This document shows, one piece after another, positions 30,362-45,189 of a stretch of DNA of 64,000 bases (position 1 is its first letter; each line of letters opens with the position of its first letter). The position numbers and the translations under genes are program-made. Location of the stretch: the sequence record NC_134263.1. One strand, written 5' to 3'. A model generated the notes under the pieces. That model saw only the letters and a program-made list of their open reading frames with translations, made no database searches and was not told where the DNA came from. The stretch comes from Escherichia phage T5_ev219.

Positions 30362-30377
30362 AATGTTTCCTTAAAGT

Positions 30378-30453: not shown

Positions 30454-30461
30454 TTATTATT

Positions 30462-30537: not shown

Positions 30538-30543
30538 ATAATT

Positions 30544-30619
30544 TGGCTGGGATGCCACGGATCGAACGTGGAACCTTCGGAGTCAGAGGCCGACGATCTG
30601 CCAATTGATCTACATCCCA
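30544..30619 (-). tRNA. tRNA-Gln (CTG)
   Basis: Manual cloverleaf with fully paired arms; loop CTCTGAC. Confidence 0.7.
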
Positions 30620-30632
30620 ATAATTCTTTACT

Positions 30633-30827
30633 CTATGGAAATAGAGTAACTGGCTCAGGTTCTTCAAGGCGCTTACCTTCATGATCTACTCGAATGACTC
30701 CGCATCCTTCGCAAACCACAACTGCACCATAACCTTCTTTGACTTCGGCTTCTGTAATCAGACCAGATAAGTCACCAGTATCTCTGCCCCACATATCAAT
30801 GGAGCATTGTTTGCAGAAATCAGCCAT
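30633..30827 (-). CDS. small Cys-rich protein (zinc-ribbon-like)
   Basis: 64 aa; CKQC...CEGC. Confidence 0.5.
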   Translation of the reverse strand: MADFCKQCSIDMWGRDTGDLSGLITEAEVKEGYGAVVVCEGCGVIRVDHEGKRLEEPEPVTLFP

Positions 30828-30852
30828 AGTTTATTTCCTATTTAAGTTAATT

Positions 30853-30929
30853 TGGGGTGGCTAGTGGAATTCGAATCCACATAGGCCTGATTCACAATCA
30901 GGATCATTAACCAATTATGATATAGCCAC
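30853..30929 (-). tRNA. tRNA-His (GTG)
   Basis: Manual cloverleaf, perfect stems; loop TTGTGAA. Confidence 0.75.
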
Positions 30930-31297
30930 AATTGAAAACTCGCAGGGTTAGCGAAACCATCCTCAATTAGCATGTTCTAGAATACTAATCAAGTTATCTC
31001 CTATTGCACGCAGCTCAAGACGAGTACGAATTTTCAATTGTGGCGGCTCTCAGAAACTCTTCTATTCTAGCCTCAGAAGCTTACCCCCGAACGCATGTCG
31101 GGAAAGTCTTTCCAAGAGCATCAAATAGCACCGTTACACTTTGAGCCATTGATGTATCAAGGAATAGAAGGGCTTGAACCTTCATGAGTTAGACCATTTA
31201 ACTCAACCGCTTTTAAGGTATATTTCTAGGAGTGGATGTTCCTAGTAAACCTATTCGGCAGTCCCGTCTACCAATTCCGGCATATTCCAAGAATTTT

Positions 31298-31471
31298 TTA
31301 TAAACCGGCAGAAGCCTCATTTAAAGCATCAACAATAGCTTCACGCTGGGTCATTCCATACCCGGTGGAGTCTAGGTGAGGCAAATAGGCTGCCCATCCA
31401 TTATCTGTTTCATGAAGGTATGCTTTAAATTTTTTACCATCCTTCATTGTTACAGTAACTGTTTTGCTCAT
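31298..31471 (-). CDS. small protein, HicB-antitoxin-like fold candidate
   Basis: 57-aa ORF with AGGAAT RBS; resemblance weak. Confidence 0.35.
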   Translation of the reverse strand: MSKTVTVTMKDGKKFKAYLHETDNGWAAYLPHLDSTGYGMTQREAIVDALNEASAGL

Positions 31472-31491
31472 AAGGATTCCTTATAGTTAAT

Positions 31492-31581
31492 TGGAGGAAG
31501 GTAATGGAGTCGAACCATCACCGTATCACTACAGCGGGCTAGTTTTCAAGACTAGTTGCGTACCACTACGCCCTACCTTCC
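31492..31581 (-). tRNA. tRNA-Ser (TGA), class II
   Basis: 90 nt; perfect acceptor; loop CTTGAAA; long variable arm. Confidence 0.75.
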
Positions 31582-31588
31582 ATTTGTT

Positions 31589-31679
31589 TGGCGGAAGAGG
31601 AGAGATTTGAACTCTCAAGCCGTTTTACCAGTCAGCCACTTTCCAAGCGGTTTTCGTCGCCAATTCGATTTGCTCTTCC
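31589..31679 (-). tRNA. class II tRNA, probably Ser (GGA)
   Basis: 91 nt; perfect acceptor and T arm; anticodon stem partly paired. Confidence 0.55.
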
Positions 31680-31791
31680 AATAATAAGATGATGCCTCTA
31701 TCATACCAGGCAGTTACGCCTCGCTGGGATTCGAACCCATTAAAACAGCTCAACCGAGATAGTAGGTTTAATTTACTCTGACCATCAAATT

Positions 31792-31868
31792 TGGTGCGTG
31801 ACAAGGGATTCGAACCCTCAAAACCCGACTTCTAAGGACGGTATGTATGCCAATTCCATCAATCACGC
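31792..31868 (-). tRNA. tRNA with TAG anticodon (Leu codon CUA) but short variable loop
   Basis: 77 nt; good acceptor, D, anticodon and T arms; 5-nt variable region. Confidence 0.55.
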
Positions 31869-31873
31869 GTATT

Positions 31874-31952
31874 TGGTGGAGGATAACGAATTCGAATCGT
31901 TCTGATGTCCTCGGTGCAAGCGAGGTGTCCACTCCCAGCAGACCCATCCCCC
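31874..31952 (-). tRNA. tRNA-Ala (TGC)
   Basis: Perfect anticodon stem; loop CTTGCAC. Confidence 0.7.
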
Positions 31953-32238
31953 AAATTCTTTAGTTTACTAAGGCTATTAGCTCGGCGTAACTACAGCACC
32001 TTCGCTTCGAGCGGAAGGAACTGCGTCATCTCGCAAACCCAATACACTATTCAGTTGCCGCTGAATCTAGTGGACTAATCTAGAACTTCTCCCAAATCGT
32101 AGGAATCGTGCTTTTTGGCAGCCAGTCCTAGGTCGAGCTAATACCTTAGTGAACTATGATGAGGATTTCTCCCCATCAATTTATATAAATATTATAACAA
32201 GAAATTAAGCATTAAGCAACTGCGTTTTTTCTTGAAAT

Positions 32239-32317
32239 TGGTAGATCGCCTGGGACTCGAACCCAGAACCTTCCGATTAAAAGTCGGATGCTACTAAACC
32301 TATTGAGCTAGCGACCT
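32239..32317 (-). tRNA. tRNA-Lys (TTT)
   Basis: Perfect anticodon stem; loop CTTTTAA. Confidence 0.7.
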
Positions 32318-32318
32318 A

Positions 32319-32486
32319 TTAGTAACCATTATATACTTCTTTAATAGAGTGGACTTTTAAATAGGGATGATTAGTATTAAACTCTACCATTACTTCATCC
32401 CAATTTTTACCATAATGGGCAAGTAAGGATTTTGATGTATTCTTACCTAAACGTTTGTCACTTACTACTAATCGAAATACTTTCAT
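32319..32486 (-). CDS. small hypothetical protein
   Basis: 55-aa ORF with GAGGAT RBS. Confidence 0.4.
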   Translation of the reverse strand: MKVFRLVVSDKRLGKNTSKSLLAHYGKNWDEVMVEFNTNHPYLKVHSIKEVYNGY

Positions 32487-32506
32487 TTCGAAATCCTCTA
32501 TTAAAA

Positions 32507-32584
32507 TGGAAGCGGGTGCAGGAATCGAACCTACCTCTTTCTAGCTTATGAGACTAGTGATCTCTACCAGAGATCTAACCCGCA
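32507..32584 (-). tRNA. tRNA with CAT anticodon, unpaired 1:72 (initiator-like)
   Basis: Loop CTCATAA; D stem GATC/GATC; U1-U72 mismatch. Confidence 0.6.
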
Positions 32585-32590
32585 ATTGTT

Positions 32591-32669
32591 TGGTCTCCGT
32601 GGGAGGATTTGAACCCCCGACCCTATCGCCCCAAACGAAACGCTCTGACCAAACTGAGCTACACGGAGA
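32591..32669 (-). tRNA. tRNA-Pro (TGG)
   Basis: Perfect acceptor; loop TTTGGGG. Confidence 0.65.
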
Positions 32670-32672
32670 ATA

Positions 32673-32831
32673 TTATTTCTTCAACCACAACAAAGATAAG
32701 CCCAGCATACTAAAGCCGCTAACTAATCCGATACCTTTTTCTTCTATAGTAAAAGTATCTAGATTAAATGCTGTTATAGCTATTGGCATACACCATAATG
32801 CCATAAAAACTTGAGCTATCTTGTGTTTCAT
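32673..32831 (-). CDS. small hydrophobic protein
   Basis: 52-aa ORF with GGAAGG RBS behind a family promoter. Confidence 0.4.
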   Translation of the reverse strand: MKHKIAQVFMALWCMPIAITAFNLDTFTIEEKGIGLVSGFSMLGLSLLWLKK

Positions 32832-33042
32832 TTTGCTTTCCTTCCCTTCACTTTATAAGATATATTATACAGAGAATTAAGCAGAATAGCAAATGAATTT
32901 TTAATAAATTTACTTATTGTGTAGGCCACCTGGAGGCTATGAACCCCACGGCTGACAAAGAAGTTTGCGAGACCTCTCTTAAATGCCAGAATAGACCCGC
33001 CGATCTATCGGAACCTACATAATAAGTAAACTTTATAGTGTC

Positions 33043-33162
33043 ATTCTAGACAGGATTCGAACCTGTTATCACTTGTGCGGACTTACGAGAACCATTCTTT
33101 CACTCGAATCGAACGAGCTTCTGCCCTCGCCAAGTTGGTTTCCCCATCAACCACGCTAGAAT
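33043..33162 (-). other. 120-nt tRNA-like structured element (two T-arm-like hairpins inside a 7-bp closing stem)
   Basis: CTAGAAT/ATTCTAG pair at the ends; internal GGTTCGAATCC-like and TTCGATT hairpins. Confidence 0.3.
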
Positions 33163-33284
33163 GTTTGATTGTTTTCAGTGCAAGAGTCCGAGTCTTGGAC
33201 ACGACCGCTTCGCAAGTACATAGGCAGCTTATCATGAGTCAGCACTTCCGAATTGCTAGCTCCGTGTTCTGCACTGAAATTTTA

Positions 33285-33641
33285 TTAGTTTAACCGTAAA
33301 GTATTATCTACTTCACCATTAATTGTTCGGCATTCCTCTGGGATTGCCGGGGTGGCCTTGTATTCCCACCACTCAGCACCATCATATTCCCCACGTTCTA
33401 GCCAAGTTCCATCGGCAAACCATACATTACCATAAAGTAATTGTCCACCGTATCCAGAATCATATTCAAAGTCTAGGTTATTAAGAAAATCCTCAATATC
33501 TTCTTCTGCATAACCTAAAGGTAATACCCAAACTTTTTTATCCCCATAATACCCGAATTCTATTTTAATACACTTAACTTCAGAATTAGTATTTTTTAAG
33601 GCAAGTAACAGCTCTTCTTTAGCATTACGCATATTACGCAT
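33285..33641 (-). CDS. hypothetical protein
   Basis: Track ORF 33285..33728 trimmed to Met30 because the N-terminal extension runs into tRNA-Asp. Confidence 0.5.
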   Translation of the reverse strand: MRNMRNAKEELLLALKNTNSEVKCIKIEFGYYGDKKVWVLPLGYAEEDIEDFLNNLDFEYDSGYGGQLLYGNVWFADGTWLERGEYDGAEWWEYKATPAIPEECRTINGEVDNTLRLN

Positions 33642-33666
33642 AATATATTCCCATACTGGATTAATT

Positions 33667-33743
33667 TGGCGCGACCGATGGGATTTGAACCCACATTCTC
33701 TCCCGTGACAGGGGAGTACCATTACCAAGCCAGCCCCGGTCGC
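33667..33743 (-). tRNA. tRNA-Asp (GTC)
   Basis: Perfect acceptor; loop CTGTCAC. Confidence 0.75.
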
Positions 33744-33752
33744 ATAATTTAT

Positions 33753-33938
33753 TTACTCAGCTTTGAGTTTTTCAATAGCTGCATTAAGTTCTTTAAGAAA
33801 CTCTTTTCGTACATTAAGACGATTGAGACTTACTAGTATATCATGTTTAAGTTCTTCGATGTATTTCTTTTCAACTTCAATATTGTTGATAGTGCTATCA
33901 CGATGAACTTCTAACTGTGCAATTACATTCTTGGACAT
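33753..33938 (-). CDS. hypothetical coiled-coil protein
   Basis: 61-aa ORF. Confidence 0.4.
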   Translation of the reverse strand: MSKNVIAQLEVHRDSTINNIEVEKKYIEELKHDILVSLNRLNVRKEFLKELNAAIEKLKAE

Positions 33939-34040
33939 GCTTGTTTCCTCAGTTATTAATGAAAATGGTATCTGTGGCTGAATTCGATGTCAGCAATGAT
34001 AGCTGGTTGGCTACCGGTTTACTTAACTCTACACAGAATT

Positions 34041-34118
34041 TGGCGGTTCCTGCTGGATTCGAACCAGCAACCCTCAACTTAACAAGATGCCGCTCTAACC
34101 AATTAGAGCTAAGGAACC
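34041..34118 (-). tRNA. tRNA-Asn (GTT), tentative
   Basis: Perfect acceptor, D and T arms; weak anticodon stem; loop TTGTTAA. Confidence 0.55.
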
Positions 34119-34613
34119 ATATAAGTCAGAACTAGAGTTAATACGTTCTAGATATTTACTAAGATCCCTAGAATTTATACTAAACCACTCATGTTCTTTT
34201 AAATCTTTGAAATACTGGTGAATTAGTTTTTCACCTTTTCGTTTGTCAAACCAAAAAGACCAATGCTCTAACTTATAATCCCTATAAGGGGAATAAGTCT
34301 GATATTGAGCTAATCTCTCTTTTGGATTTTGACTCATACCTATTTTATACTGATTTTTCCATGCAGGATTACTAATACAGTATACAAAACCTTCAGAAAT
34401 AGGAAGTTTATTTTCCTGCTTAAACTTTATAAAGGAAAGTGCAGCAAGTTTTCTCGAATACATAGTATTTGTATTCTTTTTGGTATTACCATTGGTTCCT
34501 GAAAGATTTATATATTCTTCCATAAATCTCTGGATTAGTTCTGCGGTTATATAGAAGGGCTCATTAGTAACAACGCCTTTCTTTACCAAACTATCAAAAA
34601 CTTTTGTATGCAC
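34095..34613 (-). CDS. GIY-YIG-like domain protein
   Basis: 172 aa; GFVYCISNP...YKIGMSQNP..R pattern; last 7 codons and stop overlap the 5' end of tRNA-Asn. Confidence 0.55.
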   Translation of the reverse strand: MHTKVFDSLVKKGVVTNEPFYITAELIQRFMEEYINLSGTNGNTKKNTNTMYSRKLAALSFIKFKQENKLPISEGFVYCISNPAWKNQYKIGMSQNPKERLAQYQTYSPYRDYKLEHWSFWFDKRKGEKLIHQYFKDLKEHEWFSINSRDLSKYLERINSSSDLYGSLALIG

Positions 34614-34633
34614 TACTTCTTTCCTTTAGTAAT

Positions 34634-34709
34634 TTGGACGACCGCATGAGATTTGAACTCACATAAAAAGGATTTGCAATCCTTCGCCTAAGCCATTCAG
34701 CCAACGGTC
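34634..34709 (-). tRNA. tRNA-Cys (GCA)
   Basis: Loop TGCAAAT. Confidence 0.65.
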
Positions 34710-34897
34710 GATTTATCTTGTTTTTCGAGATCTTCAAATTCTAAATCATTGAAGTTCCCTAGAGTACGGGAGTAGAACCCGTCTCCTGCGTCATAGCCTG
34801 ATTTGCCACAATCACACATTTTAAATTCACGAAGATGTGTGAAAATATGCTCAGAACCACAACACTTAAATCTAACTAATCGTTTCATTAGTTTCAT
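34697..34897 (-). CDS. small zinc-ribbon-like protein
   Basis: 66 aa; CCGSEH...CDCG; 3' end overlaps tRNA-Cys 5' end. Confidence 0.45.
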   Translation of the reverse strand: MKLMKRLVRFKCCGSEHIFTHLREFKMCDCGKSGYDAGDGFYSRTLGNFNDLEFEDLEKQDKSTVG

Positions 34898-34946
34898 TAG
34901 CTTCTCCAGTTCAATTTATATAATTATTATATAGAACTTTTGGAAA

Positions 34947-35231
34947 CTAAGCAACTACATTTTTTAAGAATTTGATGTCTTTCTTCTTCTTATATTTCCA
35001 CGTTAATGGATTCTGTCGATTGTGAACGCTTGAGATCTTCGTCTCGTCAAAGTTCTTCAATATCATGTAATCACAAGATAATTGTTCTAATGGAATGTGA
35101 TCACCGTCAAAAGCATATACATAAGGCTGTTGACTAGCACGATAATGATAGACTTTGTTAATTCTACGTTTCAGCGACTTATCAGCGCAGTAAATAAAGA
35201 AGTTTTCAGGATGCATCAGCATCTCCTTCAA
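34947..35231 (-). CDS. hypothetical protein
   Basis: 94-aa ORF. Confidence 0.45.
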   Translation of the reverse strand: MKEMLMHPENFFIYCADKSLKRRINKVYHYRASQQPYVYAFDGDHIPLEQLSCDYMILKNFDETKISSVHNRQNPLTWKYKKKKDIKFLKNVVA

Positions 35232-35233
35232 TT

Positions 35234-35308
35234 TGGTGCACCCTGTTCGTATCGAACGAACCTCTCAAGCTCTTCAGGCAAGCGCTAATCCATCTCAGCT
35301 AAAGGTGC
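35234..35308 (-). tRNA. tRNA-Phe (GAA), tentative
   Basis: Good acceptor and T arm; loop CTGAAGA; partial anticodon stem. Confidence 0.55.
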
Positions 35309-35315
35309 AAATTTT

Positions 35316-35391
35316 GGCAAACCTACTAGGACTCGAACCTAGACCGTACGGTTTTGGAGACCGACATGCTGTCCAGTAACACTCTAGGAAT
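35316..35391 (-). tRNA. tRNA-like, Trp (CCA) anticodon arm but unpaired acceptor stem (possible pseudogene)
   Basis: Good D, anticodon and T arms and 3' CCA; 5' and 3' acceptor strands not complementary. Confidence 0.35.
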
Positions 35392-35399
35392 GCAGAAAT

Positions 35400-35476
35400 T
35401 GGCGTCCTGTGCGGGGATCGAACCCGCAAATCCTACCTTGAAAGGGTAGTGACTTTACCAGTTTGTCTAACAGGAC
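35400..35476 (-). tRNA. tRNA-Glu (TTC)
   Basis: Perfect acceptor and anticodon stems; loop CTTTCAA. Confidence 0.7.
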
Positions 35477-35483
35477 TTAAATT

Positions 35484-35574
35484 TGGTGTTGGATGATGGA
35501 GTCGAACCACCCGAGACCCTTCCGAGTCGGCAGATTTACAGTCTGCTTCGCTACCTCTACGATACTAATCCAAC
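35484..35574 (-). tRNA. tRNA-Tyr (GTA), class II
   Basis: 91 nt; perfect acceptor; anticodon stem GCAGA/TCTGC; loop CTGTAAA. Confidence 0.7.
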
Positions 35575-35702
35575 ATATTTAAAAGTATTCAAATACTAGT
35601 TTAAACACTTTTAAATATGTTTCCGAATTAGATAACTATTATACCAAGTTTTAAGGCACTGAGCAAGTCAAATTTTAAAGAACTTGCTCAGTGCTGTATT
35701 AG

Positions 35703-35978
35703 TTAGTCGAACTTAGGAGTGACAGTTAAGGAGAACGGAAGTTCGAAAACTTCTTCGCCCTCATTACTAACGGTAACTACACGACCTTTAAGTTCAGACA
35801 TTAAAATATCAATATCAGCTTTTGCATCTGGAGCCATGCCAGCTTCAATACATTTAGCTTTAACTTCCGGTAAAAGCTCTACGTTATAGAGATAGAGCCA
35901 CTCAATCTCACCTTCCCAGTCTTCCCAGGATTTGCAGATTGCACTTTCAATACCAGTTGCTACAACACGATTTTGCAT
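35703..35978 (-). CDS. hypothetical protein
   Basis: 91-aa ORF behind a family promoter. Confidence 0.5.
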   Translation of the reverse strand: MQNRVVATGIESAICKSWEDWEGEIEWLYLYNVELLPEVKAKCIEAGMAPDAKADIDILMSELKGRVVTVSNEGEEVFELPFSLTVTPKFD

Positions 35979-36068
35979 TAATTAACTCCTTCATCAATTT
36001 ATATAACTATTATACCAGAAATTTAAAGTAAAAGGCAAGTACATTTTTAAAAATTCTGTTTGGAGGAG

Positions 36069-36275
36069 CTAAACTCCAGATTTTTCGGCCAAGTCTAGAC
36101 TAATAAGAGTTATAGCCATAATTGCTGCACCGTGTTCTTTTTCTCCGGTGTTTTTAGCAGAGTCTATAATATCCTTAATCTGTTCGTAATAACTTTTTAC
36201 TTCTTGTTCAATGCCTGCCTCGGCTATCATGCCTTTAGCCATGAATCGTTGCATGGTAATTTCAGGATTAGCCAT
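36069..36275 (-). CDS. hypothetical protein
   Basis: 68-aa ORF. Confidence 0.45.
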   Translation of the reverse strand: MANPEITMQRFMAKGMIAEAGIEQEVKSYYEQIKDIIDSAKNTGEKEHGAAIMAITLISLDLAEKSGV

Positions 36276-36450
36276 GTTGTTTCTCCAGTTTCATTTTTAA
36301 TAGTTTACAGATGAAATCAACGTCTTCATCTGTGCCTAAGTCTCTATCCTCAAGGGTCGCCTTGAAGTTTTTCGTCAATTCCATGAGGATGATTTCCCTA
36401 GAACGACGTGTTGGCGGAGGTGGATGTCTATACATCTTATTTCCTTAATT

Positions 36451-36527
36451 TGGTAGGGGTGGTGGGATTCGAACCCACAAAACCTGAATTTTAAGTCCAG
36501 TACCTATGCCAATTCGATTACACCCCC
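36451..36527 (-). tRNA. tRNA with TAA anticodon (Leu codon UUA) but short variable loop
   Basis: 77 nt; good acceptor, anticodon and T arms; D-loop AATTGGCATA shared with 31792..31868. Confidence 0.55.
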
Positions 36528-36628
36528 GTGTAATCAGTTTATTAGTTGATACATATTATAGCCTAAAGAAAACCCTACTACTAATCCTACTAACCAACCA
36601 ATATAATAATCTTTTAATTTCACGGGTG

Positions 36629-36814
36629 TCAACCTCGTTCAATATCTAGAGAAATACCACAGGTAGGATTAATGCCTGTGCCTTTGCACGTCGGACAAAC
36701 CCAGATATTACAGAATGTATCCCCTGCTTCTGCATCAGAACTTTCTCCAACTCCTAGACAGTCAGGACAGGCACATTCTTCTAGCTCTTGCTTGAGTTCT
36801 TGAAACTTAGACAT
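36629..36814 (-). CDS. small zinc-ribbon protein
   Basis: 61 aa; CACPDC...CPTCKG. Confidence 0.5.
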   Translation of the reverse strand: MSKFQELKQELEECACPDCLGVGESSDAEAGDTFCNIWVCPTCKGTGINPTCGISLDIERG

Positions 36815-36823
36815 ATAGTTTCC

Positions 36824-37012
36824 TTATTCAATTACTTTTGAGGCTTCAAGGGAGTCGATATAGTGTACGTTTTCTACCATAATCATATAATCTGCCACTT
36901 TATCCATAGCCTGAGCTTCAGAGGTAGCCCTGGCTAACCTATATCCTTTTTTATATTCATCCGGGTATTCCCTATCTGGAATAAACACAACATAAACTAG
37001 GTATAGTTCCAC
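36824..37012 (-). CDS. hypothetical protein
   Basis: 62-aa ORF. Confidence 0.4.
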   Translation of the reverse strand: MELYLVYVVFIPDREYPDEYKKGYRLARATSEAQAMDKVADYMIMVENVHYIDSLEASKVIE

Positions 37013-37033
37013 TTGTAACCCCTCTAATTAAAC

Positions 37034-37111
37034 TGGTGGCTCCCCGAGGATTCGAACCTACGTACCTTCCGGTTATGAGCCGGGTGCTCATACCATATGA
37101 GCTTGAGAACC
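37034..37111 (-). tRNA. tRNA with CAT anticodon, E. coli fMet-like anticodon arm
   Basis: Anticodon arm CCGG-CTCATAA-CCGG; D stem GCTC/GAGC; weak T stem. Confidence 0.5.
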
Positions 37112-37117
37112 AGAATT

Positions 37118-37206
37118 TGGCGGAAGAAGTGGGAATCGAACCCACAAGGCTATATTTCAAACCGACAGATTAGCAATCTGCTGCAATACCGTTATGCTAT
37201 TCTTCC
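37118..37206 (-). tRNA. tRNA-Ser (GCT), class II
   Basis: 89 nt; perfect acceptor; loop TTGCTAA. Confidence 0.65.
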
Positions 37207-37310
37207 GAATTTATAAGATATATTATATTAGAAATTTAGCTTCATAGCAAGAAAATTTTTCAAGTTTTCGGTAGACATCTCATCCACATCTACAGGAGAA
37301 ACAAATCCAT

Positions 37311-37745
37311 TTAATTGTCTAGCAAATTTTCACCAGCAGGATCATTATCCCCAACAGCTACCAATTTAAAAGGTAATAATTTCAGTTGCTTTAATAACGC
37401 TTTTCCTGGAGAAGAACCCAACATTGCTAGGGCTGGATAACCAGCGTTATGTAACGCAACTGCCTTAAATACAGATTCAGCGATCAATACTACTTTTTCA
37501 TCTCCATTGAGAGTTTCTAGTCCCCATACACACTGGGTAGTAGAATAAGTAAAATATTTAGCTTCAAAGGGACACTTACCATGACCTTTTGGAGCAGAAG
37601 GATTATAAGTTTGATAGCCCCTCAACATCCCAGAGAAGTCATACAACGGGACTGTTAGCCATCCTTCCGGACTTAACCAGCAATGATATTTTTCTGTATC
37701 AAATCCTCTAGATAAGAGGTGCTGTGTTAGCTCATCAACATTCAT
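37311..37745 (-). CDS. Toprim-domain protein (primase-like C-terminal fragment)
   Basis: Track ORF trimmed to Met18 because Met1 lies inside the promoter; LIAESV...ALHNAG...AMLGSS...VGDNDPAG resembles DnaG Toprim motifs. Confidence 0.45.
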   Translation of the reverse strand: MNVDELTQHLLSRGFDTEKYHCWLSPEGWLTVPLYDFSGMLRGYQTYNPSAPKGHGKCPFEAKYFTYSTTQCVWGLETLNGDEKVVLIAESVFKAVALHNAGYPALAMLGSSPGKALLKQLKLLPFKLVAVGDNDPAGENLLDN

Positions 37746-37920
37746 ATCTGGTTCCTCTCTCAAATTTATAGATATATTATACAGAGAATTTAGCATTCAA
37801 GCAATCAAATTTTTTAACTTTTTAGAGGAAAATCATAGGGCACTTAAGGGCAGCAGATAAGTGGTGAGGACCAAAATTTGTGACCCCACTAAAAATCCGG
37901 GGGCAATTTTTAAAGACCCT

Positions 37921-37949
37921 TTGACATTTTCGCCGGGGTAGTGTAAAGT
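37921..37949 (+). promoter_or_regulatory. sigma70-like promoter for the plus-strand cassette
   Basis: TTGACA, 17-bp spacer, TAAAGT. Confidence 0.45.
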
Positions 37950-38011
37950 ATATGTTATGGATGAGTGATCAAAGAGACACACATTTTCTATATACTAGGA
38001 GGTGTCAAAAA

Positions 38012-38992
38012 ATGACAGAAGAAGTAGCTAAGAGTCCTGAGACCGTCGCTAGCGTAGCAGCAGAACTGCATCGTCACGAGGAATCAGATAAGAAAAAGTG
38101 GGAGAAGGTCAGAGCCTACGAAGAAGAACATCGTGAACACGATGATAAAGATGAAGAAGATGACGATGATGTACGTTGTCATAAATATGGAAAATATAAA
38201 ATGCAAGAACCAGTAAACGTATTTACTAACGGCTTCCCTGGCATGGGTGCATTCCCAGCTAACGCAAGTGCTTTCGGTGGAGAAGGTATGGGTCTATTCG
38301 GAGCTATCCTAATCGGTGCTCTATTAACCGGCGGATTTGGTGGTTTTGGTGGTTTTGGTCGTGGTGCTGGCGTTGCCGCTGAAGGAACCGCTGTGGACGC
38401 GATCCTTTCTAACCAGGATACTGCAAGTATTCTAGCTGCAATCAATACTACTCGTACAGAAGCTAACCAGGGCACTGGGGCTGTTCTAAGTGCAGTAAAC
38501 GGTGTGGGAGCTGCTCAAGCTGCTAGCACTCAGCAAGTTCTGACTACTATCTACGGTACAGGTGCTAATCTGTCAAACCAGATCTGTGCTGAAACTCGTA
38601 ACGTTATTCAGGGTCAGTTCGATCTTTCTCGTCAGATGGATCAATCTTTCGCTGCTAACCAGATAGCACGTGCTCAAGATAAGTTTGACTCTGCTCAGAT
38701 TGCTTTCCAGCAGTCTATTCAGACCAACAACCAGTTTGCCGCTGTTCAGGCTCAGATGTGCGCTAACCAGAACGCTATCGAACGTCAGCTTGCTGAATGT
38801 TGCTGTGAGCTTCAGACTGCGATCGCTGGTGTAACTACTGCACGTATCCAGGACGAACTGAATGAATGCCGTCTGCGCGAAGCAATCGCTGCAGGTAGCG
38901 GTGCAAATGGTCAGGTAATCAACCAAATCGCTGTAAGTCTTGGTGCTATCACTCAGACTCTGGCTGGTCTGCAGGCTAAACTGCCGGCTTAA
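38012..38992 (+). CDS. Gly/Ala/Gln/Asn-rich low-complexity protein with central hydrophobic Gly-rich segment
   Basis: Track ORF trimmed to MTEEVAK with AGGAGG RBS; acidic N-terminus, GMGLFGAILIGALLTGGFGGFGGFG segment, Q/A/N-rich C-terminus with ECCCEL. Confidence 0.6.
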   Translation: MTEEVAKSPETVASVAAELHRHEESDKKKWEKVRAYEEEHREHDDKDEEDDDDVRCHKYGKYKMQEPVNVFTNGFPGMGAFPANASAFGGEGMGLFGAILIGALLTGGFGGFGGFGRGAGVAAEGTAVDAILSNQDTASILAAINTTRTEANQGTGAVLSAVNGVGAAQAASTQQVLTTIYGTGANLSNQICAETRNVIQGQFDLSRQMDQSFAANQIARAQDKFDSAQIAFQQSIQTNNQFAAVQAQMCANQNAIERQLAECCCELQTAIAGVTTARIQDELNECRLREAIAAGSGANGQVINQIAVSLGAITQTLAGLQAKLPA

Positions 38993-39013
38993 AATTAAGG
39001 GGAGGAGCCCATT

Positions 39014-39430
39014 ATGAGTAAATATGGTTTTGTGAACAACGGATTTAATCAACCAATGGGCTCCCAGCAGCCCGTTCCGGGTCTGGATAATCCTTACCTA
39101 CAACAGTTGCAACAGCGTTTAGCAGAAGCGCAACAGATGCAGCAACAACTCCAGCAAAACCCTGGAAGTGTGAGTCCTATGCAAATGATGCAGCAAATGA
39201 GCGGGCAGTCGCAAATGCCTCAACAAATGCATCAACAGGTGACTCAGCAGCAAGTTCAGCAGCAAACCCAACAACCGCAGGTTTCTGCGGAAGGACAGGC
39301 AGTACTAGCCCTTTTCGAAGACTTCGCAAAGACAGAGGATGGGAAGCAGCTTGTATCACTTATGGGTAAGTTTAATAGCTTCTGCCAAAGCCAAATTGCA
39401 AAAGCTCAAAATAGCGGTAATAACTCCTAA
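39014..39430 (+). CDS. glutamine-rich low-complexity protein
   Basis: 138 aa; GGGAGG RBS; poly-Q/QQ-rich middle. Confidence 0.55.
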   Translation: MSKYGFVNNGFNQPMGSQQPVPGLDNPYLQQLQQRLAEAQQMQQQLQQNPGSVSPMQMMQQMSGQSQMPQQMHQQVTQQQVQQQTQQPQVSAEGQAVLALFEDFAKTEDGKQLVSLMGKFNSFCQSQIAKAQNSGNNS

Positions 39431-39439
39431 GGAGGAATT

Positions 39440-39634
39440 ATGTGTTGCAGAAAATCTGTTTCGTGCTGCCCAATGCCTGTAGCACGTTGTTGCTCTCCAG
39501 CAATGTTTACGCAAATACCGGCGTTCAATCCGTTTGCCTTTAAGCCTACTCTTATCCTGCCCCCTAGAGTAGATTTTCAGTCAAGATTGGCCTCCCGTAT
39601 GGGTGGTTGCTGTAACAAGAGTATATGGTTCTAA
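39440..39634 (+). CDS. Cys-rich small protein with four CC doublets
   Basis: 64 aa; AAGGAGG RBS; MCCRK..SCCP..RCCSP...GGCCNK. Confidence 0.5.
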   Translation: MCCRKSVSCCPMPVARCCSPAMFTQIPAFNPFAFKPTLILPPRVDFQSRLASRMGGCCNKSIWF

Positions 39635-39649
39635 GGAACCAAACAATAA

Positions 39650-39686
39650 AGCCCCTAGTCGAAAGACTTAGGGGCTTTTCTTTTAT
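39650..39686 (+). terminator. rho-independent terminator of the plus-strand cassette
   Basis: GC-rich hairpin followed by TTTTCTTTT. Confidence 0.7.
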
Positions 39687-39687
39687 C

Positions 39688-39735
39688 TTAAATACAGAAA
39701 AGCCCTGCGCTCTCCAGGGAACGCAGGGCTTACTT
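39688..39735 (-). terminator. rho-independent terminator downstream of SPFH gene
   Basis: 8-bp stem gccctgcg/cgcagggc then U-run on minus strand. Confidence 0.65.
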
Positions 39736-39754
39736 CGAATATTACGTGTGGGTA

Positions 39755-40702
39755 TTACTTGTTACGCATATCCATAATCATCTGGCCATCGTAACCAGTG
39801 CCAACCACAGTCTGCGGTACGCCACCTTGATATTTCTGAGCACGAATCATCTCAACTTCCAGTTGTTTCCAACGAATCATCTCAGGAGTAATGGTACGTT
39901 GCAGTGCGGCGTTAGCTTCAGCTTCTTTCTTAGCTGCGTACAGTTTAGCATCTGCGTCACGTTCATTAGCGATAGCTTGGTTGTTGCGAGCTTCACGATC
40001 TGCTTCTGCTTGTTTAACTTTTTGCTGTGCTTCCTGTTCAACACGAGCTAATTCAGCTTTAGCAGCATTAACCTGTTCTTCACGAACTTTGGTATTCTGT
40101 ACCTGTTCCATGATTACCGGTGGCAAAGTAATATCCTGAAGGAATACCTGCTTAACTGTGTAACCATATGGGCGTGCATACTCTTCAACTTCCTGTTGAA
40201 TTGCAGTTTGCAATTGAGCCTGAATTTTAGCATCAAACAAATCTTGTGCTTTAGGTACAGACTTACCAAACTCACGAATAGTAGACAGTAATTTTTCAGT
40301 TACATACTTGTCTAGTGCCTGATCCTGAGTACCTGCATTAATACGGTTAATCGGTGCCTTAGAACCATCAAACTGCAACATAACAGTCAGGTCAACAGTG
40401 GATTTAAACTTATCCTGACTAGGAACCTGAAGTTTATCTAATTTTACAGCAATATCTTTTGTACTGAAAGTATCGAAAGATGCAAACGGGTTTACAATAT
40501 GGAAACCAGGTAATACTGGATTAGGGTCTACTTTACCCAGGAATGTTTGAGTTTTAACCGTACCATCAGAAACAATAGTATATGAATTAAAAGCTAGGAT
40601 TAAACCTGCTAAACCAACTACAGCACCAATCCCCCAACGTTTAATAGTACGAATTACTTTCTGCTCAGAAGTTAGTTCTTTCATATTTTTAGTATTAAAC
40701 AT
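39755..40702 (-). CDS. SPFH/band-7 (prohibitin/HflC-like) membrane protein
   Basis: 315 aa; N-terminal TM, SPFH-like core, long Ala/Glu/Gln-rich coiled-coil tail; AAGGAA RBS. Confidence 0.65.
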   Translation of the reverse strand: MFNTKNMKELTSEQKVIRTIKRWGIGAVVGLAGLILAFNSYTIVSDGTVKTQTFLGKVDPNPVLPGFHIVNPFASFDTFSTKDIAVKLDKLQVPSQDKFKSTVDLTVMLQFDGSKAPINRINAGTQDQALDKYVTEKLLSTIREFGKSVPKAQDLFDAKIQAQLQTAIQQEVEEYARPYGYTVKQVFLQDITLPPVIMEQVQNTKVREEQVNAAKAELARVEQEAQQKVKQAEADREARNNQAIANERDADAKLYAAKKEAEANAALQRTITPEMIRWKQLEVEMIRAQKYQGGVPQTVVGTGYDGQMIMDMRNK

Positions 40703-40736
40703 ATATTTCCTTTGTTTTAGTTACAGTTAATAAAAT

Positions 40737-40811
40737 TGGCCGAGGTGACAGGATTCGAACCTGCATAAAGGAATTTAGAAGACTCCTGCCTCTCCCTTAG
40801 ACTACACCCCG
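40737..40811 (-). tRNA. tRNA-Arg (TCT)
   Basis: Anticodon stem GGAGT/ATTCC; loop CTTCTAA; CCA encoded. Confidence 0.65.
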
Positions 40812-41313
40812 TTTAAGTATTTTTAAGAACTCTCGTAAAAACTCTTAAAAATACAGACGATACCGGGAGAGTCATAAGTCTCACTCATTAAGTATTTCAA
40901 GACAAAATACAGTAACGTCTATTATTTTCCAGTTTAAGTCAGGGTGACTTAGTGGTTATGTCCTGCGGTATATTGAGGACTCGGTTAGGCTTGGGGTCAT
41001 GACTTCCCGCCTTTTGCTGCTACTCAACAGGAGTTATCGCGAATTACCTGTGCTATTGTGCACCATTAGTGACATCTCTCATGTCAGCATTTCCCACTTT
41101 GTGGATAGCTTGAAAAACTACTCCGATATGGAGAAAGAACTTCACTATCCTAGAATACCTTCTAAAGTTCTTCTTTAGCCTGGACATAGTTAAATCGTAA
41201 TAAAACTATTCAGCAGACTGGTTGGTTAGTCTGGAACCAACTACCGCGTGGTTTAGGCAGTGCGCAACTAACCTCGGAAGCTTTTACGTTAAAAGCATCA
41301 GTTATCCAGTTCT

Positions 41314-41385
41314 TACCGACCGTAGGATTCGAACCTACATCTTCCACCAGTTACGGCTTGGTAATACCAATTATACTAGGACGGC
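41314..41385 (-). tRNA. tRNA-like element (no encoded CCA; possible pseudogene)
   Basis: T arm GTAGG-TTCGAAT-CCTAC; acceptor with one mismatch; non-canonical anticodon loop. Confidence 0.3.
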
Positions 41386-41645
41386 AGTGTTACTACATAA
41401 GTGATTTCCACACCCCACTATTTATAAATTAGAGAAGAGTTTAGGGGAGAGGTTTCAGACGCCCCATTTTACACGTTCTAGCCACTAACCGGGATTGCCG
41501 CCCCCTGTGTACTAGTTTTCCAACTAACCCACCGACTCTATTCAATGCGCTCCGGTTGGGATTCTGCACTCAGCGTAATCGGCTCGCTGTTCTCTAATTT
41601 ATGAATATATTATACAGAATTTATAGGCATTTAGCAAATAAATTT

Positions 41646-42327: not shown

Positions 42328-42795
42328 TTAAGTTTTAGTGACAACAGGCTTATAAAATGTATGTCCCTTAATCTTAGTTGTTTTCTTAAACTTCTTTGTC
42401 CAGTATGGTTTATCTTTACCACTATGGAAGTATAAAGCTCCATGTGTAGGATCTTGTGGTAAATCAACGTAGTATATCACTCTAGCTAAATTCTTGGCGG
42501 TTTGCCAAGCCTCATCAGTTTTATCAACTTTTGGTCTCTTAGATACCCAAGAGAACTGGTTAGACTGATATACTACTTTACAGTAGGAATCTGGGAATTT
42601 ACCGGAGTTTACACGGTTTTTAGTAACATGTGCAATCGCCGTCATTCCCTTTATGCCCTCACCACGACTTTCGAAATAGATATTTTTAGCAATGCAATCT
42701 ATTTCTTTTGCATCGTGCGATGCCTGACTACTAAAGCTGAAGGTAAGGGCAGCTACTAAAAGCAAAGCTGCCTTCATTCTTTTTACTCCTGCCAA
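42328..42795 (-). CDS. secreted cell-wall hydrolase, SleB/CwlJ-like
   Basis: 155 aa; N-terminal signal peptide; CIAKNIYFESRGE...AIAHVTKNR...GALYFH pattern. Confidence 0.6.
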   Translation of the reverse strand: MAGVKRMKAALLLVAALTFSFSSQASHDAKEIDCIAKNIYFESRGEGIKGMTAIAHVTKNRVNSGKFPDSYCKVVYQSNQFSWVSKRPKVDKTDEAWQTAKNLARVIYYVDLPQDPTHGALYFHSGKDKPYWTKKFKKTTKIKGHTFYKPVVTKT

Positions 42796-43100
42796 TCATA
42801 TTCAACACGATTGGGATTTTCTTTATACCCTAAGTCAAGCAAATCATTACGCATAGTTTGCTTAGCTACGGGATTCGAGGTTACTAGTACCACTTTCTTT
42901 GGTCTCTGCCCAAATTCTAAGAGTAAACGAAGAATTTGATAACCTTCCATACCATCTACAGCCAAGTCATTATCCATATAAACAAAGTGGCCTGTGGTAT
43001 CAGTTTTATTCAGAAACTCGACAGCGGCTTCTGGGGTTCGAATGATAATGTCCATTCCGTGAAGATTACGCACATCATCAATCAAAATATGAAAAGTCAT
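42783..43100 (-). CDS. stand-alone CheY-like receiver-domain protein
   Basis: 105 aa; ILIDDV acidic pair, YMDNDLAVDGMEG phospho-acceptor region, VVLVTS, downstream Lys. Confidence 0.5.
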   Translation of the reverse strand: MTFHILIDDVRNLHGMDIIIRTPEAAVEFLNKTDTTGHFVYMDNDLAVDGMEGYQILRLLLEFGQRPKKVVLVTSNPVAKQTMRNDLLDLGYKENPNRVEYDWQE

Positions 43101-43542
43101 AATAGCCTCGTTTCATCAATTTAAAAATATATTATACAGATAACTTAATAAATTAGCAAATACATTTTTAAATTGTGAAACTAGTAAACCGATAAACAGC
43201 CTAGAGGCGCCACAGGCCATATCTTATGAGCCATGTACCTTTGATCTAGGGTTTGAATCATCAACGAATACTTTGCATCTTTTAGCTTTAGAAGTTTAGA
43301 AGTTTGAGTTCTTTAAACTTTTCAGCTTTCATACTTAAATGTTGATCTTTGAAGTTGTGTCGGTAATATCAACGACGCTTTGTTCTTACGTGTCAGCTTA
43401 AAAGGCTGGTGTAATAAACATAATCTCCAATAGATTATACTTTATAGTATGGTCAGCGGTCTTATTTAACCTCGTATTTCAACCGCTGCTGCGAGGTAAG
43501 ATGCTTGGGCTTTCGTCTACCGATTTACTAGCTTTTAAATTA

Positions 43543-44487: not shown

Positions 44488-45189
44488 TCAAATTTTGATT
44501 TTTTCGACCATAGCTGCAACACAATAGCTCTCAACTAAGGCATCAAATGCTGGGTCGTGCTTAACCGGATAGATCCCATAACGAATGGTGTCCATCTTCT
44601 CCATTTTAGCTATTGCCCAGCTAATACCTTCGGTCTCTAGAGCTTTATAACTATATCCAGCTTGCATCCAGAGATTACGAAGAGATCGAACATTACCCAA
44701 GTTCCAGAATTTCCACGGAACTATTTCTTCATTGGTTCCAGCATGGAAAGTGTTTGCAGAGTAGATAGTCATATCAAACTCTGGGCCGTTGCCATAATAC
44801 AAAGCATTCTCTCCTAGAGCCAACTCCATAATATTTTGAGCCATAGAGTAAGCAGCATAGTTAGAGCCGAGTTTATTAGTACAATGATGTTTACCGTTTT
44901 GGAATGCAATCAGCTTTGGATTACGATCGTTCATAGCTTCCATAATGTGGAGGGCAGACGGACTATTCTTAGCTTGACCCATCCAGAATGCTAGAGTAGA
45001 TGCTGTAACTTTAGCACCAGAGTTAAACTGATCTTGCACATCCAAAGTAACAAATACTAGATCAGGGTCTTTATCAATCCCATGCATAGCCACAAAAGCG
45101 AAAGAAGGCATTGCGATATGAGTAGTACCACAATCTCCTGGAGTTCCTAGAGATTCAATATCTAGCATACCAAATGGTTTTACTTTCAT
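44488..45189 (-). CDS. DnaQ-like 3'-5' exonuclease (DEDDh)
   Basis: 233 aa; motif I LDIESLG, C-terminal H-x4-D (KHDPAFDA). Confidence 0.6.
   Translation of the reverse strand: MKVKPFGMLDIESLGTPGDCGTTHIAMPSFAFVAMHGIDKDPDLVFVTLDVQDQFNSGAKVTASTLAFWMGQAKNSPSALHIMEAMNDRNPKLIAFQNGKHHCTNKLGSNYAAYSMAQNIMELALGENALYYGNGPEFDMTIYSANTFHAGTNEEIVPWKFWNLGNVRSLRNLWMQAGYSYKALETEGISWAIAKMEKMDTIRYGIYPVKHDPAFDALVESYCVAAMVEKIKI

What the first reader, a model, noticed from the sequence alone, without database searches (positions are those of the whole stretch)
42783..43100. Stand-alone CheY-like receiver-domain protein in a lytic phage
The 105-aa product has the receiver signature set in order (acidic pair, phospho-acceptor Asp region with DGMEG, conserved Thr, downstream Lys) and no output domain. 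A single-domain receiver could act as a phosphate sink or decoy for a host two-component system.
Basis: partly seen in the sequence, partly recalled or inferred. Interest (0 to 1): 0.5.

Follow-up and report, generated by a model that had tools for sequence, protein, structure and literature searches.

The report
Receiver-like cREC protein of T5-like phage
This small gene of a T5-type phage encodes a stripped-down relative of bacterial 'receiver' signalling domains; it belongs to an already catalogued but never tested phage family (cREC) that is predicted to process phosphate ends on RNA or nucleotides, not to intercept host signalling.

Summary
The ORF is real: window 42783-43100, minus strand, 105 aa, with a GAGG ribosome-binding site and a sigma-70-like promoter. 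The window is a T5-like phage (Tequintavirus), and the gene is the ortholog of T5.084.

Helices alpha1 and alpha5 are missing. Alpha1 is the histidine-kinase docking helix. The "downstream Lys" is neither conserved nor at the K109 position. Across 173 relatives the conserved residues are D8, D9, R11, D17, R21, D43-x-D45, G53, T/S74 and N76. That pattern fits a catalytic Asp-based phosphoesterase.

The family is described in the literature (Iyer/Aravind 2021, 2022) as never linked to histidine kinases and as experimentally uncharacterised.

In related phages the gene often lies next to or inside tRNA gene arrays (10 of 22 lineages) and near RtcB in two lineages. This supports an RNA or tRNA end-processing role.

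Verdict: a known family, with the decoy interpretation unsupported. Interest is modest.

The parts
42783..43100 (-). cREC (cyclic-phosphate processing receiver-like) protein CDS, 105 aa; ortholog of phage T5 gene T5.084
43106..43109 (-). Ribosome-binding site GAGG, 5 nt upstream of the ATG
   Evidence: Read directly from the sequence.
43131..43159 (-). Sigma-70-like promoter TTGCTA-17-TATAAT just upstream of the gene
   Evidence: Consensus scan, 10/12 matches. T5 annotates a promoter at the equivalent place upstream of T5.084. The scan alone is not above the shuffle expectation.
42328..42777 (-). Downstream neighbour: SleB-like cell-wall hydrolase with a signal peptide, starting 5 nt after the cREC stop. 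Probably co-transcribed; probably not functionally coupled.
   Evidence: Pfam Hydrolase_2, E = 2.4e-25. The adjacency is broken by inserted genes in vB_EcoS_Ace and KKP_3711 and is lost in My1.
29239..41386 (-). Context (inferred link): array of 23 tRNA genes on the same strand, beginning 1.4-2.0 kb downstream of the cREC gene. Candidate substrates or functional partners.
   Evidence: ARAGORN. Rfam tRNA hits at 40740-40811 and 41314-41385. Family-wide tRNA-array association.
44488..45189 (-). Context (inferred link): Rv2179c-like 3'-5' exoribonuclease, 1.4 kb upstream in the same transcription direction
   Evidence: Pfam PF16473, E = 6.5e-8. PHROG 255 exonuclease.
57281..58771 (+). Context (inferred link): SIR2-family gene (57281-58105) followed by a HAD_SAK_2 'Swiss-army-knife' RNA-repair phosphatase gene (58265-58771). 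This is a predicted NAD-dependent RNA-end clean-up pair in the same genome, 14 kb away.
   Evidence: Pfam SIR2, E = 9e-24, and HAD_SAK_2, E = 1.8e-20. The pairing in T5-like phages is described in PMC9503650.

Best explanation
The gene encodes a member of the cREC family (Pfam PF20274), and is the ortholog of T5.084.

**Structure.** It is a minimal receiver-fold protein with five or six strands and three helices. It lacks receiver helices alpha1 and alpha5.

**Active centre.** It keeps the receiver/HAD-type acidic centre:
- D8/D9 after strand 1, in the positions of the receiver Mg2+ ligands.
- D43 after strand 3, at the position of the CheY D57 nucleophile.
- D45 two residues later, at the position of the general acid/base in HAD phosphatases.
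- T74 and N76 after strand 4.
- Conserved R11 and R21 may replace the missing Lys as phosphate clamps.

**Most likely function.** It acts as a small phosphoesterase through an aspartyl-phosphate-type intermediate. Likely substrates are phosphate ends of RNA (2',3'-cyclic phosphate or 2'/3'-phosphate, most plausibly on tRNA) or related ADP-ribose cyclic phosphates. It would be expressed early in infection as part of the phage's RNA or tRNA maintenance and counter-defence functions. Other components in the same genome could be the large tRNA array, a 3'-5' exoribonuclease and the SIR2 plus HAD_SAK phosphatase pair.

**Shown here:** gene reality, family membership, fold, conserved-residue pattern and genomic associations.

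**Inferred:** catalysis, metal use, substrate and biological role.
For: - **Family membership.** PF20274 scores 54.9 bits (cutoff 27), while PF00072 scores only 12.4. All 37 relatives match PF20274. Public records already name close homologs 'cyclic-phosphate processing receiver domain-containing protein'.
- **Residues.** D8, D9, R11, D17, R21, D43, D45, G53, T/S74 and N76 are each conserved in 155-172 of 173 divergent relatives. The alignment to CheY gives D43=D57, D45=N59, T74=T87, N76=E89 and Y92=Y106.
- **tRNA context.** In 22 lineages of HMM-verified homologs, 10 have tRNA genes within 6 kb, all on the same strand. Four lineages have the gene inside an array of at least 10 tRNAs. The ThyA control gives 2/14 to 2/23, with Fisher p = 0.006-0.055.
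- **Other context.** RtcB RNA ligase lies 2.3 kb downstream in two lineages. The window itself holds 23 tRNAs, an Rv2179c-like exoribonuclease and SIR2 plus HAD_SAK_2.
- **Literature.** The family was defined by linkage to RNA ligases, Nudix, sirtuins and NAD/ADP-ribose enzymes (PMC7824862, PMC9503650).
Against: - No member of the family has been tested biochemically. PMC9503650 calls it 'experimentally uncharacterized'. No solved structure is close.
- In this phage the gene is not in an operon with an RNA ligase, Nudix or sirtuin gene. SIR2/HAD_SAK is 14 kb away on the other strand. T5-likes appear to lack their own RNA ligase in the annotated region.
- Its immediate neighbours are a cell-wall hydrolase and proteins of unknown function.
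- The tRNA-array association is only moderately significant. It could partly reflect clustering of accessory early genes.
- The residue equivalences to CheY rest on a weak profile alignment (hhalign probability 11%) plus the position of each residue after a predicted strand. Model coordinates could not be inspected.
- RtcB does not need a separate cyclic phosphodiesterase.
Confidence: 0.5

Rival explanations
1. Counter-signalling enzyme or sponge. The protein hydrolyses or sequesters low-molecular-weight immune messengers (cADPR isomers, ADPR cyclic phosphate, cyclic mono- or oligonucleotides) made by host Thoeris, CBASS, Pycsar or type III CRISPR systems, rather than acting on RNA ends.
For: - The papers that defined the family offer cADPr or 1''-2'' cyclic ADPR phosphate as alternative substrates and report Nudix fusions.
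- It is a small, stand-alone, early-expressed phage protein with its own promoter, as known anti-signalling proteins are.
- It has the same conserved catalytic-looking residues.
Against: - There is no hit in PADLOC and no linkage to known anti-defence genes here.
- The associations I measured are with tRNA arrays and RtcB, which point to RNA.
- No literature links T5.084 or PF20274 to any defence system.
Confidence: 0.17
2. A stand-alone CheY-like receiver takes phosphate from a host histidine kinase (or acetyl phosphate) and acts as a phosphate sink or decoy for a host two-component system.
For: - Receiver fold.
- The acidic pair, the Asp at the acceptor position and the Thr are present and conserved, so aspartyl phosphorylation by small donors is chemically plausible.
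Against: - PF00072 is below its cutoff in the query and matches 0/37 relatives.
- Helix alpha1, the kinase-docking helix, and alpha5 are absent. Only 5-9 residues lie between the DDxR motif and strand 2 in the family alignment.
- The K109 equivalent is absent.
- Homologs occur in phages of very different hosts and in CPR bacteria, without neighbouring kinases.
- The literature states the family is never found with histidine kinases.
Confidence: 0.05
3. Non-catalytic adaptor (pseudo-receiver). The fold is used only to bind a host or phage macromolecule such as a ribosome, a translation factor or RNA polymerase. The acidic pocket serves as a ligand or metal site for regulation.
For: - Many receiver-like domains are protein-interaction modules.
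- An L7/L12 C-terminal-domain-like ORF overlaps the cREC stop codon in two or three metagenomic lineages.
- Loss of alpha1 and alpha5 exposes one face of the sheet, a possible interface.
Against: Near-absolute conservation of three Asp, a Thr/Ser, an Asn and two Arg across proteins that otherwise share only about 30% identity is typical of an active site. Pseudo-receivers usually lose these residues.
Confidence: 0.13
4. Nucleotide phosphatase in deoxynucleotide metabolism. The protein is a small acid-phosphatase-like enzyme acting on free (d)NMPs or similar metabolites, as part of the phage's nucleotide-precursor block.
For: - In T5-likes and My1 the gene sits in the early block with ThyA, DHFR, RNR and RNase H.
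- ThyA lies within 6 kb in 4 of 22 lineages.
- The chemistry would be HAD-like.
Against: - ThyA loci in general do not share the tRNA association.
- Linkage to ThyA is seen in only 4 lineages.
- The literature contexts are RNA-repair and NAD/ADPR systems.
Confidence: 0.1

Closest known systems
cREC / cRec domain family (Pfam PF20274 cREC_REC; Iyer, Anantharaman, Krishnan, Burroughs, Aravind, Viruses 2021;13:63; Viruses 2022;14:1977)
   Same: - The Pfam score is above the gathering cutoff.
- Same length, about 100 aa, and stand-alone.
- Same conserved aspartates.
- Mostly in phages, with no histidine-kinase partners.
- Close homologs are already named this way in UniProt and GenBank.
   Different: - Nothing excludes it from the family.
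- In this phage the gene is not next to the RNA ligase, Nudix or sirtuin genes that were used to define the family.
- The T5 clade has W instead of the K/R found at alignment column 103 in 128/173 members.
- The passages I read do not mention the tRNA-array association I measured.
Canonical two-component receiver domains (CheY; Pfam PF00072 Response_reg)
   Same: - Acidic pair after strand 1, Asp after strand 3, Thr after strand 4, the 'M-D/E-G' turn and an aromatic residue at the Y106 position.
   Different: - Helices alpha1 and alpha5 are missing and there is no Lys at the K109 position.
- Invariant Asp at D+2 and Asn at T+2, and extra invariant Arg residues (R11, R21).
- It scores below the PF00072 cutoff.
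- There is no kinase, Hpt or output partner.
HAD / DxDxT acylphosphatases, e.g. the 3'-phosphatase domain of T4 polynucleotide kinase-phosphatase and the HAD_SAK RNA-repair phosphatases
   Same: Works-like comparison, from established knowledge of receiver/HAD active-site equivalence:
- A Rossmann-like sheet with an Asp nucleophile.
- An Asp two residues downstream.
- A Ser/Thr on the next strand and an acidic pair for Mg2+.
- The proposed substrates, 2',3'-cyclic or 3'-phosphate RNA ends, are those of T4 Pnkp.
   Different: - There is no sequence match to HAD families.
- The D-x-D lies after strand 3, not strand 1, and no Thr follows at +4.
- There are no cap, squiggle or flap elements.
- It is not a member; the resemblance is an analogy only.
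2H phosphoesterases (LigT, Acb1-like)
   Same: The literature predicts overlapping substrates: 2',3'-cyclic phosphates, ADPR>P and cyclic oligonucleotides. Both occur in phage RNA-repair and counter-defence contexts.
   Different: The fold and chemistry are unrelated. 2H enzymes use two H-x-T/S motifs and no Asp nucleophile.

Membership tests
cREC_REC (Pfam PF20274) | Score above the Pfam gathering cutoff over the whole domain | tested here: met
   54.9 bits against a cutoff of 27, covering residues 4-87 and model positions 2-86 of 88. All 37 relatives match.
cREC_REC (Pfam PF20274) | Conserved receiver-type aspartates retained | tested here: met
   D8, D9, D43 and D45 are each conserved in 170-172 of 173 relatives.
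cREC_REC (Pfam PF20274) | Never associated with histidine kinases; mostly in phages or prophages | tested here: met
   492 phage records and 60 IMG/VR loci. No kinase appears in the Pfam-annotated neighbourhoods. Only some neighbourhoods were annotated domain by domain.
cREC_REC (Pfam PF20274) | Operonic linkage to RNA ligases or to NAD/ADP-ribose-processing enzymes (Nudix, sirtuin, Macro) | tested here: inconclusive
   Not met for the immediate neighbours in this window. SIR2 plus HAD_SAK_2 are present 14 kb away. RtcB lies 2.3 kb downstream in 2 of 22 other lineages.
cREC_REC (Pfam PF20274) | Cyclic-phosphate phosphoesterase activity (the predicted function that names the family) | not testable with these tools
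   No experimental data exist for any member (PMC9503650).
Canonical receiver domain (PF00072, CheY-like) | Score above the Pfam gathering cutoff | tested here: not met
   12.4 bits against a cutoff of 30.2. 0/37 relatives match at E <= 0.01.
Canonical receiver domain (PF00072, CheY-like) | Complete (beta-alpha)5 fold, including alpha1 (kinase docking) and alpha5 | tested here: not met
   The AF2 model has three helices. Strand 1 (4-7) connects to strand 2 (18-20) by a 10-residue loop, and a beta-hairpin replaces alpha5. In the family alignment only 5-9 residues lie between DDxR and strand 2. This rests on a predicted, not solved, structure.
Canonical receiver domain (PF00072, CheY-like) | Acidic pair after strand 1, phospho-acceptor Asp after strand 3, Thr/Ser after strand 4 | tested here: met
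   D8/D9, D43 (=D57) and T74 (=T87).
Canonical receiver domain (PF00072, CheY-like) | Conserved Lys after strand 5 (CheY K109) | tested here: not met
   The aligned position is N95. Lys occurs in only 21/173 relatives at that column, and K93 in 36/173.
Canonical receiver domain (PF00072, CheY-like) | Phosphorylation by a cognate histidine kinase or small phosphodonor | not testable with these tools
   Needs in vitro phosphotransfer assays.
HAD / DxDxT acylphosphatases | Motif I DxDxT at the end of strand 1, plus a match to a HAD-family profile | tested here: not met
   No HAD family appears among the Pfam hits at E <= 10. The D-x-D (D43-N-D45-L-A) lies after strand 3 and has no Thr at +4.

The most novel reading that the evidence does not exclude
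cREC proteins would be a new class of RNA 3'-end healing enzyme built on the receiver fold. They would work through an aspartyl-phosphate intermediate. Large virulent phages would place them inside or beside their tRNA gene arrays to restore tRNAs, phage or host, whose ends were damaged by tRNA-targeting host defences. In T5-like phages the protein would act with the SIR2/HAD_SAK pair, the 3'-5' exoribonuclease and host CCA-adding or RtcB enzymes.
Probability: 0.25. Interest if true: 0.6.

Novelty: already known. Interest (0 to 1): 0.3.

Why it matters
- The family is a comparative-genomics prediction that nobody has tested. T5 is a classical, genetically tractable phage with known interplay between its tRNA genes and tRNA-cleaving host defences.
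- If T5.084 is a phosphoesterase acting on RNA or nucleotide cyclic phosphates, it would add an enzymatic use of the receiver fold outside two-component signalling. It would also add a new component of phage RNA repair or counter-defence.
- For genome annotation the practical point is narrower. Such genes should not be read as two-component receivers or as evidence that phages tap host phosphorelays.

Tried and rejected
- **PDB sequence searches.** The single sequence found nothing meaningful. The family profile gave apparently strong hits to TALE repeat proteins (E down to 6e-18). Each repeat scores only 4-6 bits on the 'P..VV.V.SN.g' stretch and the scores add up over 15-20 repeats. I rejected these as a repeat artefact. 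True receiver chains appear only at E about 1.
- **Structure libraries.** Foldseek against the PDB found no close solved relative (best E = 4e-3, TM 0.57). The afdb50 library was unavailable.
- **Other protein libraries.** PADLOC and NCBIfam gave no hit for the protein.
- **Literature.** Searches for PF20274, T5.084, YP_006912 and KVP40.0304, and for receiver-like anti-defence proteins, found no experimental work.
- **Functional coupling to the SleB-like hydrolase 5 nt downstream.** Rejected, because the adjacency is interrupted or lost in vB_EcoS_Ace, KKP_3711 and My1.
- **Locus searches.** The search for related loci with the 37-sequence alignment failed because no conserved stretch was long enough. 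A 10-sequence subset worked.
- **RNase H as a second control for tRNA proximity.** It retrieved almost only Demerecviridae and was dropped.
- **Rfam scan of 40600-44300.** It found only the two tRNA-type matches. The snoR83 and Hrs13 hits are far below gathering score, so they are chance.

Full report
**1. The observation**

It runs from 42783 to 43100, starts with ATG and encodes 105 aa. The sequence is MTFHILIDDVRNLHGMDIIIRTPEAAVEFLNKTDTTGHFVYMDNDLAVDGMEGYQILRLLLEFGQRPKKVVLVTSNPVAKQTMRNDLLDLGYKENPNRVEYDWQE.

GAGG lies 5 nt upstream of the ATG. A TTGCTA-17-TATAAT site lies at 43159-43131 on the same strand. That scan as a whole is not above shuffle expectation, but phage T5 annotates a promoter at the equivalent position.

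The window is a T5-like virulent phage (Tequintavirus, Demerecviridae), 98% identical to chee24/OSYSP over 5 kb. The protein is the ortholog of T5.084 ('hypothetical protein, similar to KVP40.0304'). By tblastn it occurs in 492 of 50,697 phage records. These are T5-like phages at 90-100% identity, more distant Demerecviridae at 50-56%, and KVP40-like Vibrio phages at about 36%.

**2. What it is**

Family assignment:
- Pfam places it in PF20274 cREC_REC, 'cyclic-phosphate processing receiver domain' (54.9 bits, cutoff 27, E = 1.4e-14).
- The canonical receiver model PF00072 reaches only 12.4 bits against a cutoff of 30.2.
- All 37 diverse relatives match PF20274 and none matches PF00072.
- PHROG 1479 has no assigned function.
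- An exhaustive search of 1.84 billion cluster representatives gives 217 relatives at E <= 0.001. Nearly all of the 150 listed are stand-alone proteins of about 100 aa.
- Several public records already call close homologs 'cyclic-phosphate processing receiver domain-containing protein'.

Predicted structure:
- An AlphaFold2 model built on a 37-sequence alignment is confident (pLDDT 94.4, pTM 0.86).
- It has strands at 4-7, 18-20, 39-42, 69-72, 93-94 and 100-102, and helices at 23-32, 53-62 and 77-89.
- Foldseek agrees but weakly (best E = 4e-3, TM 0.57).
- So the protein is a true but divergent receiver-superfamily member with no close solved relative.

**3. How it differs from a CheY-like receiver**

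Conservation over 173 relatives:

| Position | Conservation |
|---|---|
| D8 | 170 |
| D9 | 170 |
| R11 | 159 (+8 K) |
| D17 | 155 |
| R21 | 167 |
| D43 | 171 |
| Position 44 | H or N |
| D45 | 172 |
| G53 | 172 |
| P67 | 163 |
| T/S74 | 172 |
| N76 | 170 |
| Aromatic at 92 | 173 |

A profile alignment to E. coli CheY gives D43=D57, D45=N59, E52-G53=D64-G65, T74=T87, N76=E89, Y92=Y106 and N95=K109. That alignment is weak (hhalign probability 11%). It is consistent with each conserved residue lying just after a predicted strand.

- The acidic pair, the acceptor-position Asp and the Thr are right.
- The acceptor equivalent is D43, not the D49 of 'DGMEG'. Only E52-G53 of that motif is meaningful.
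- The 'downstream Lys' fails. K93 and N95 lie in non-conserved columns, with Lys in 36 and 21 of 173 relatives.

Structural differences:
- Only 10 residues link strand 1 to strand 2, and in the family alignment only 5-9 residues lie between DDxR and strand 2. There is no room for helix alpha1.
- A short beta-hairpin replaces alpha5.
- Alpha1 and the beta5-alpha5 region are the surfaces through which receivers dock onto histidine-kinase DHp domains (established knowledge). Their absence argues directly against the phosphate-sink or decoy idea.

The invariant Asp two residues after the nucleophile-position Asp reproduces the D-x-D arrangement of HAD/DxDxT phosphatases. Their active-site geometry is known to match that of receivers, and there the second Asp is the general acid/base. 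Together with the invariant Asn at T+2 and the extra invariant arginines, this reads as an enzyme active site. This step is inference.

**4. Literature**

The family was defined by the Aravind group in a jumbo-phage survey (PMC7824862) and a survey of viral NAD/ADP-ribose systems (PMC9503650). According to those papers:
- It is never found with histidine kinases.
- It occurs mostly in phages or prophages.
- It is linked or fused to RNA ligases, Nudix, sirtuin, 2H and nucleotide kinase genes.
- It is predicted to open 2',3'-cyclic phosphates on RNA or 1''-2'' cyclic ADPR phosphate.
- It is 'experimentally uncharacterized'.

I found no later experimental work.

**5. Context in the window**

The gene lies in the early region, which is transcribed leftward.

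Upstream:
- RNase H.
- An Rv2179c-like 3'-5' exoribonuclease at 44488-45189.
- Two proteins of unknown function.

Downstream:
- A SleB-like secreted hydrolase, 5 nt away.
- A 56-aa protein.
- A YqeY-like protein.
- 23 tRNA genes on the same strand at 29239-41386.

The hydrolase adjacency is not conserved in more distant Demerecviridae, so I do not treat it as functional. The window also carries a SIR2 gene followed by a HAD_SAK_2 'Swiss-army-knife' RNA-repair phosphatase at 57281-58771. PMC9503650 lists this pair for T5-like phages as a predicted NAD-dependent RNA-end clean-up system.

**6. Context in relatives**

I retrieved 60 IMG/VR loci and verified each cREC ORF with a family HMM (E <= 2.6e-13). 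They fall into 22 lineages at 60% identity.

tRNA association:
- Ten lineages have tRNA genes within 6 kb. All 98 tRNAs are on the cREC strand.
- Eight lineages have a tRNA within 2 kb.
- In four lineages the gene sits inside an array of 10-21 tRNAs. In L047, for example, it starts 76 nt after tRNA-Asn and ends 140 nt before tRNA-Lys.
- In L069 it starts 26 nt after a tRNA-Leu.

Controls:
- Loci found with ThyA, another early gene that lies 5 kb from cREC in T5, have any tRNA within 6 kb in only 2 of 14 lineages (60% clusters) or 2 of 23 (75% clusters). None holds an array.
- Fisher p values range from 0.006 to 0.055, depending on the clustering.
- I regard this as suggestive, not proven. Accessory early genes may cluster near tRNA arrays for other reasons.

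Other recurrent neighbours:
- RtcB RNA ligase (Pfam E about 1e-114) lies 2.3 kb downstream in two lineages.
- Metallophosphatase-like genes recur, and so does an L7/L12 C-terminal-domain-like ORF that overlaps the cREC stop.

Cellular genomes:
- The scan of 185,579 species genomes, with one narrow pattern, found three hits, all in CPR metagenome-assembled genomes.
- One lies on a 565-kb Falkowbacteria contig between a dinB-like gene and fmt/def, with two NYN RNase genes nearby and no kinase.

**7. Most likely mechanism and rivals**

Best explanation (confidence about 0.5): a small receiver-fold phosphoesterase that uses D43 as nucleophile, D45 as acid/base, D8/D9 as probable metal ligands, and T74, N76 and R11/R21 for phosphate binding. 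It would act on cyclic or terminal phosphates of RNA, most plausibly tRNA, or on ADP-ribose derivatives during early infection.

Rivals:

| Rival | Confidence |
|---|---|
| Degradation or sequestration of nucleotide immune messengers | 0.17 |
| Non-catalytic adaptor | 0.13 |
| Nucleotide phosphatase in dNTP metabolism | 0.10 |

Family membership, fold and residue pattern are shown here. Chemistry, substrate and role are inferred.

**8. Novelty and score**

The family, its phage distribution and its predicted role are published, and this very protein family is already labelled in public databases. The finding is therefore already known.

What remains open is the experimental function. T5 would be a convenient system to test it, and the tRNA-array association gives a concrete hypothesis. 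Interest: 0.3.

Noticed in passing
window 41313-41386 (minus strand): ARAGORN calls a tRNA-like gene here as tRNA-Ser with anticodon ACT, and it scores 37.9 bits on Rfam tRNA (gathering 29). It lies in the stretch that the T5 record annotates as 'RNA X, stable RNA with unknown functions'. ACT-anticodon tRNA-Ser calls also appear in the tRNA arrays next to cREC in L064-L071.
   Followed up: partly
window 43101-43542: A stretch of about 440 nt without a convincing ORF lies between the 212-aa upstream gene and the cREC gene. It holds the promoter-like site. There is no Rfam match, and the T5 record annotates only a promoter here.
   Followed up: partly
window 57281-58771 (plus strand): A SIR2-family gene is followed by a HAD_SAK_2 'Swiss-army-knife' RNA-repair phosphatase gene, and then by two paralogous DUF7415 genes (58774-59604). 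Some public records annotate the HAD gene as a second 'Sir2'.
   Followed up: partly
protein P0062 (Kenya-K44 / JLBYU43 / Shivani-type T5-like phages); L008 4323-4847: Homing endonucleases target this spot. In some T5-like phages an HNH_3 endonuclease is fused in frame to the N-terminus of the cREC domain (273 aa, with no Met at the junction). In vB_EcoS_Ace a homing endonuclease gene is inserted between the cREC and hydrolase genes.
   Followed up: partly
window 47203-48199 (minus strand): An HNH_3 homing-endonuclease ORF (182 aa) and a 151-aa ORF lie between RNase H and thymidylate synthase. The close relative chee24 has only a 93-aa gene there, so this is a local insertion polymorphism.
   Followed up: no
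L039 6303-6665, L046 6317-6874, L005 6306-6659: In two or three metagenomic phage lineages, an ORF with a ribosomal L7/L12 C-terminal-domain match overlaps the stop codon of the cREC gene.
   Followed up: partly
L038 7579-8895 and L059 3007-4107: Adenylosuccinate-synthetase-like genes (possibly PurZ-type) lie near cREC in two phage lineages, paired with an unannotated gene of about 300 aa.
   Followed up: no
L065 731-1135: ARAGORN calls a permuted tmRNA-like gene at the edge of a phage tRNA array, 0.9 kb upstream of the cREC gene.
   Followed up: no
window 43543-44181, 45496-45711, 44488-45189: Public annotations of these early-region genes look unreliable. The 212-aa protein is called 'tail fiber protein' and a 71-aa protein is called 'tail length tape-measure protein'. 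The 233-aa protein is called 'metallopeptidase' or 'recombination exonuclease', but it matches the Rv2179c-like 3'-5' exoribonuclease family.
   Followed up: partly
L183 (Candidatus Falkowbacteria MAG, 565-kb contig) 4980-5267: A cellular cREC homolog (Pfam E = 1.2e-20) lies in a CPR bacterium between a dinB-like polymerase gene and fmt/def, with two NYN-domain RNase genes 2 kb away. The family is therefore not strictly viral.
   Followed up: partly
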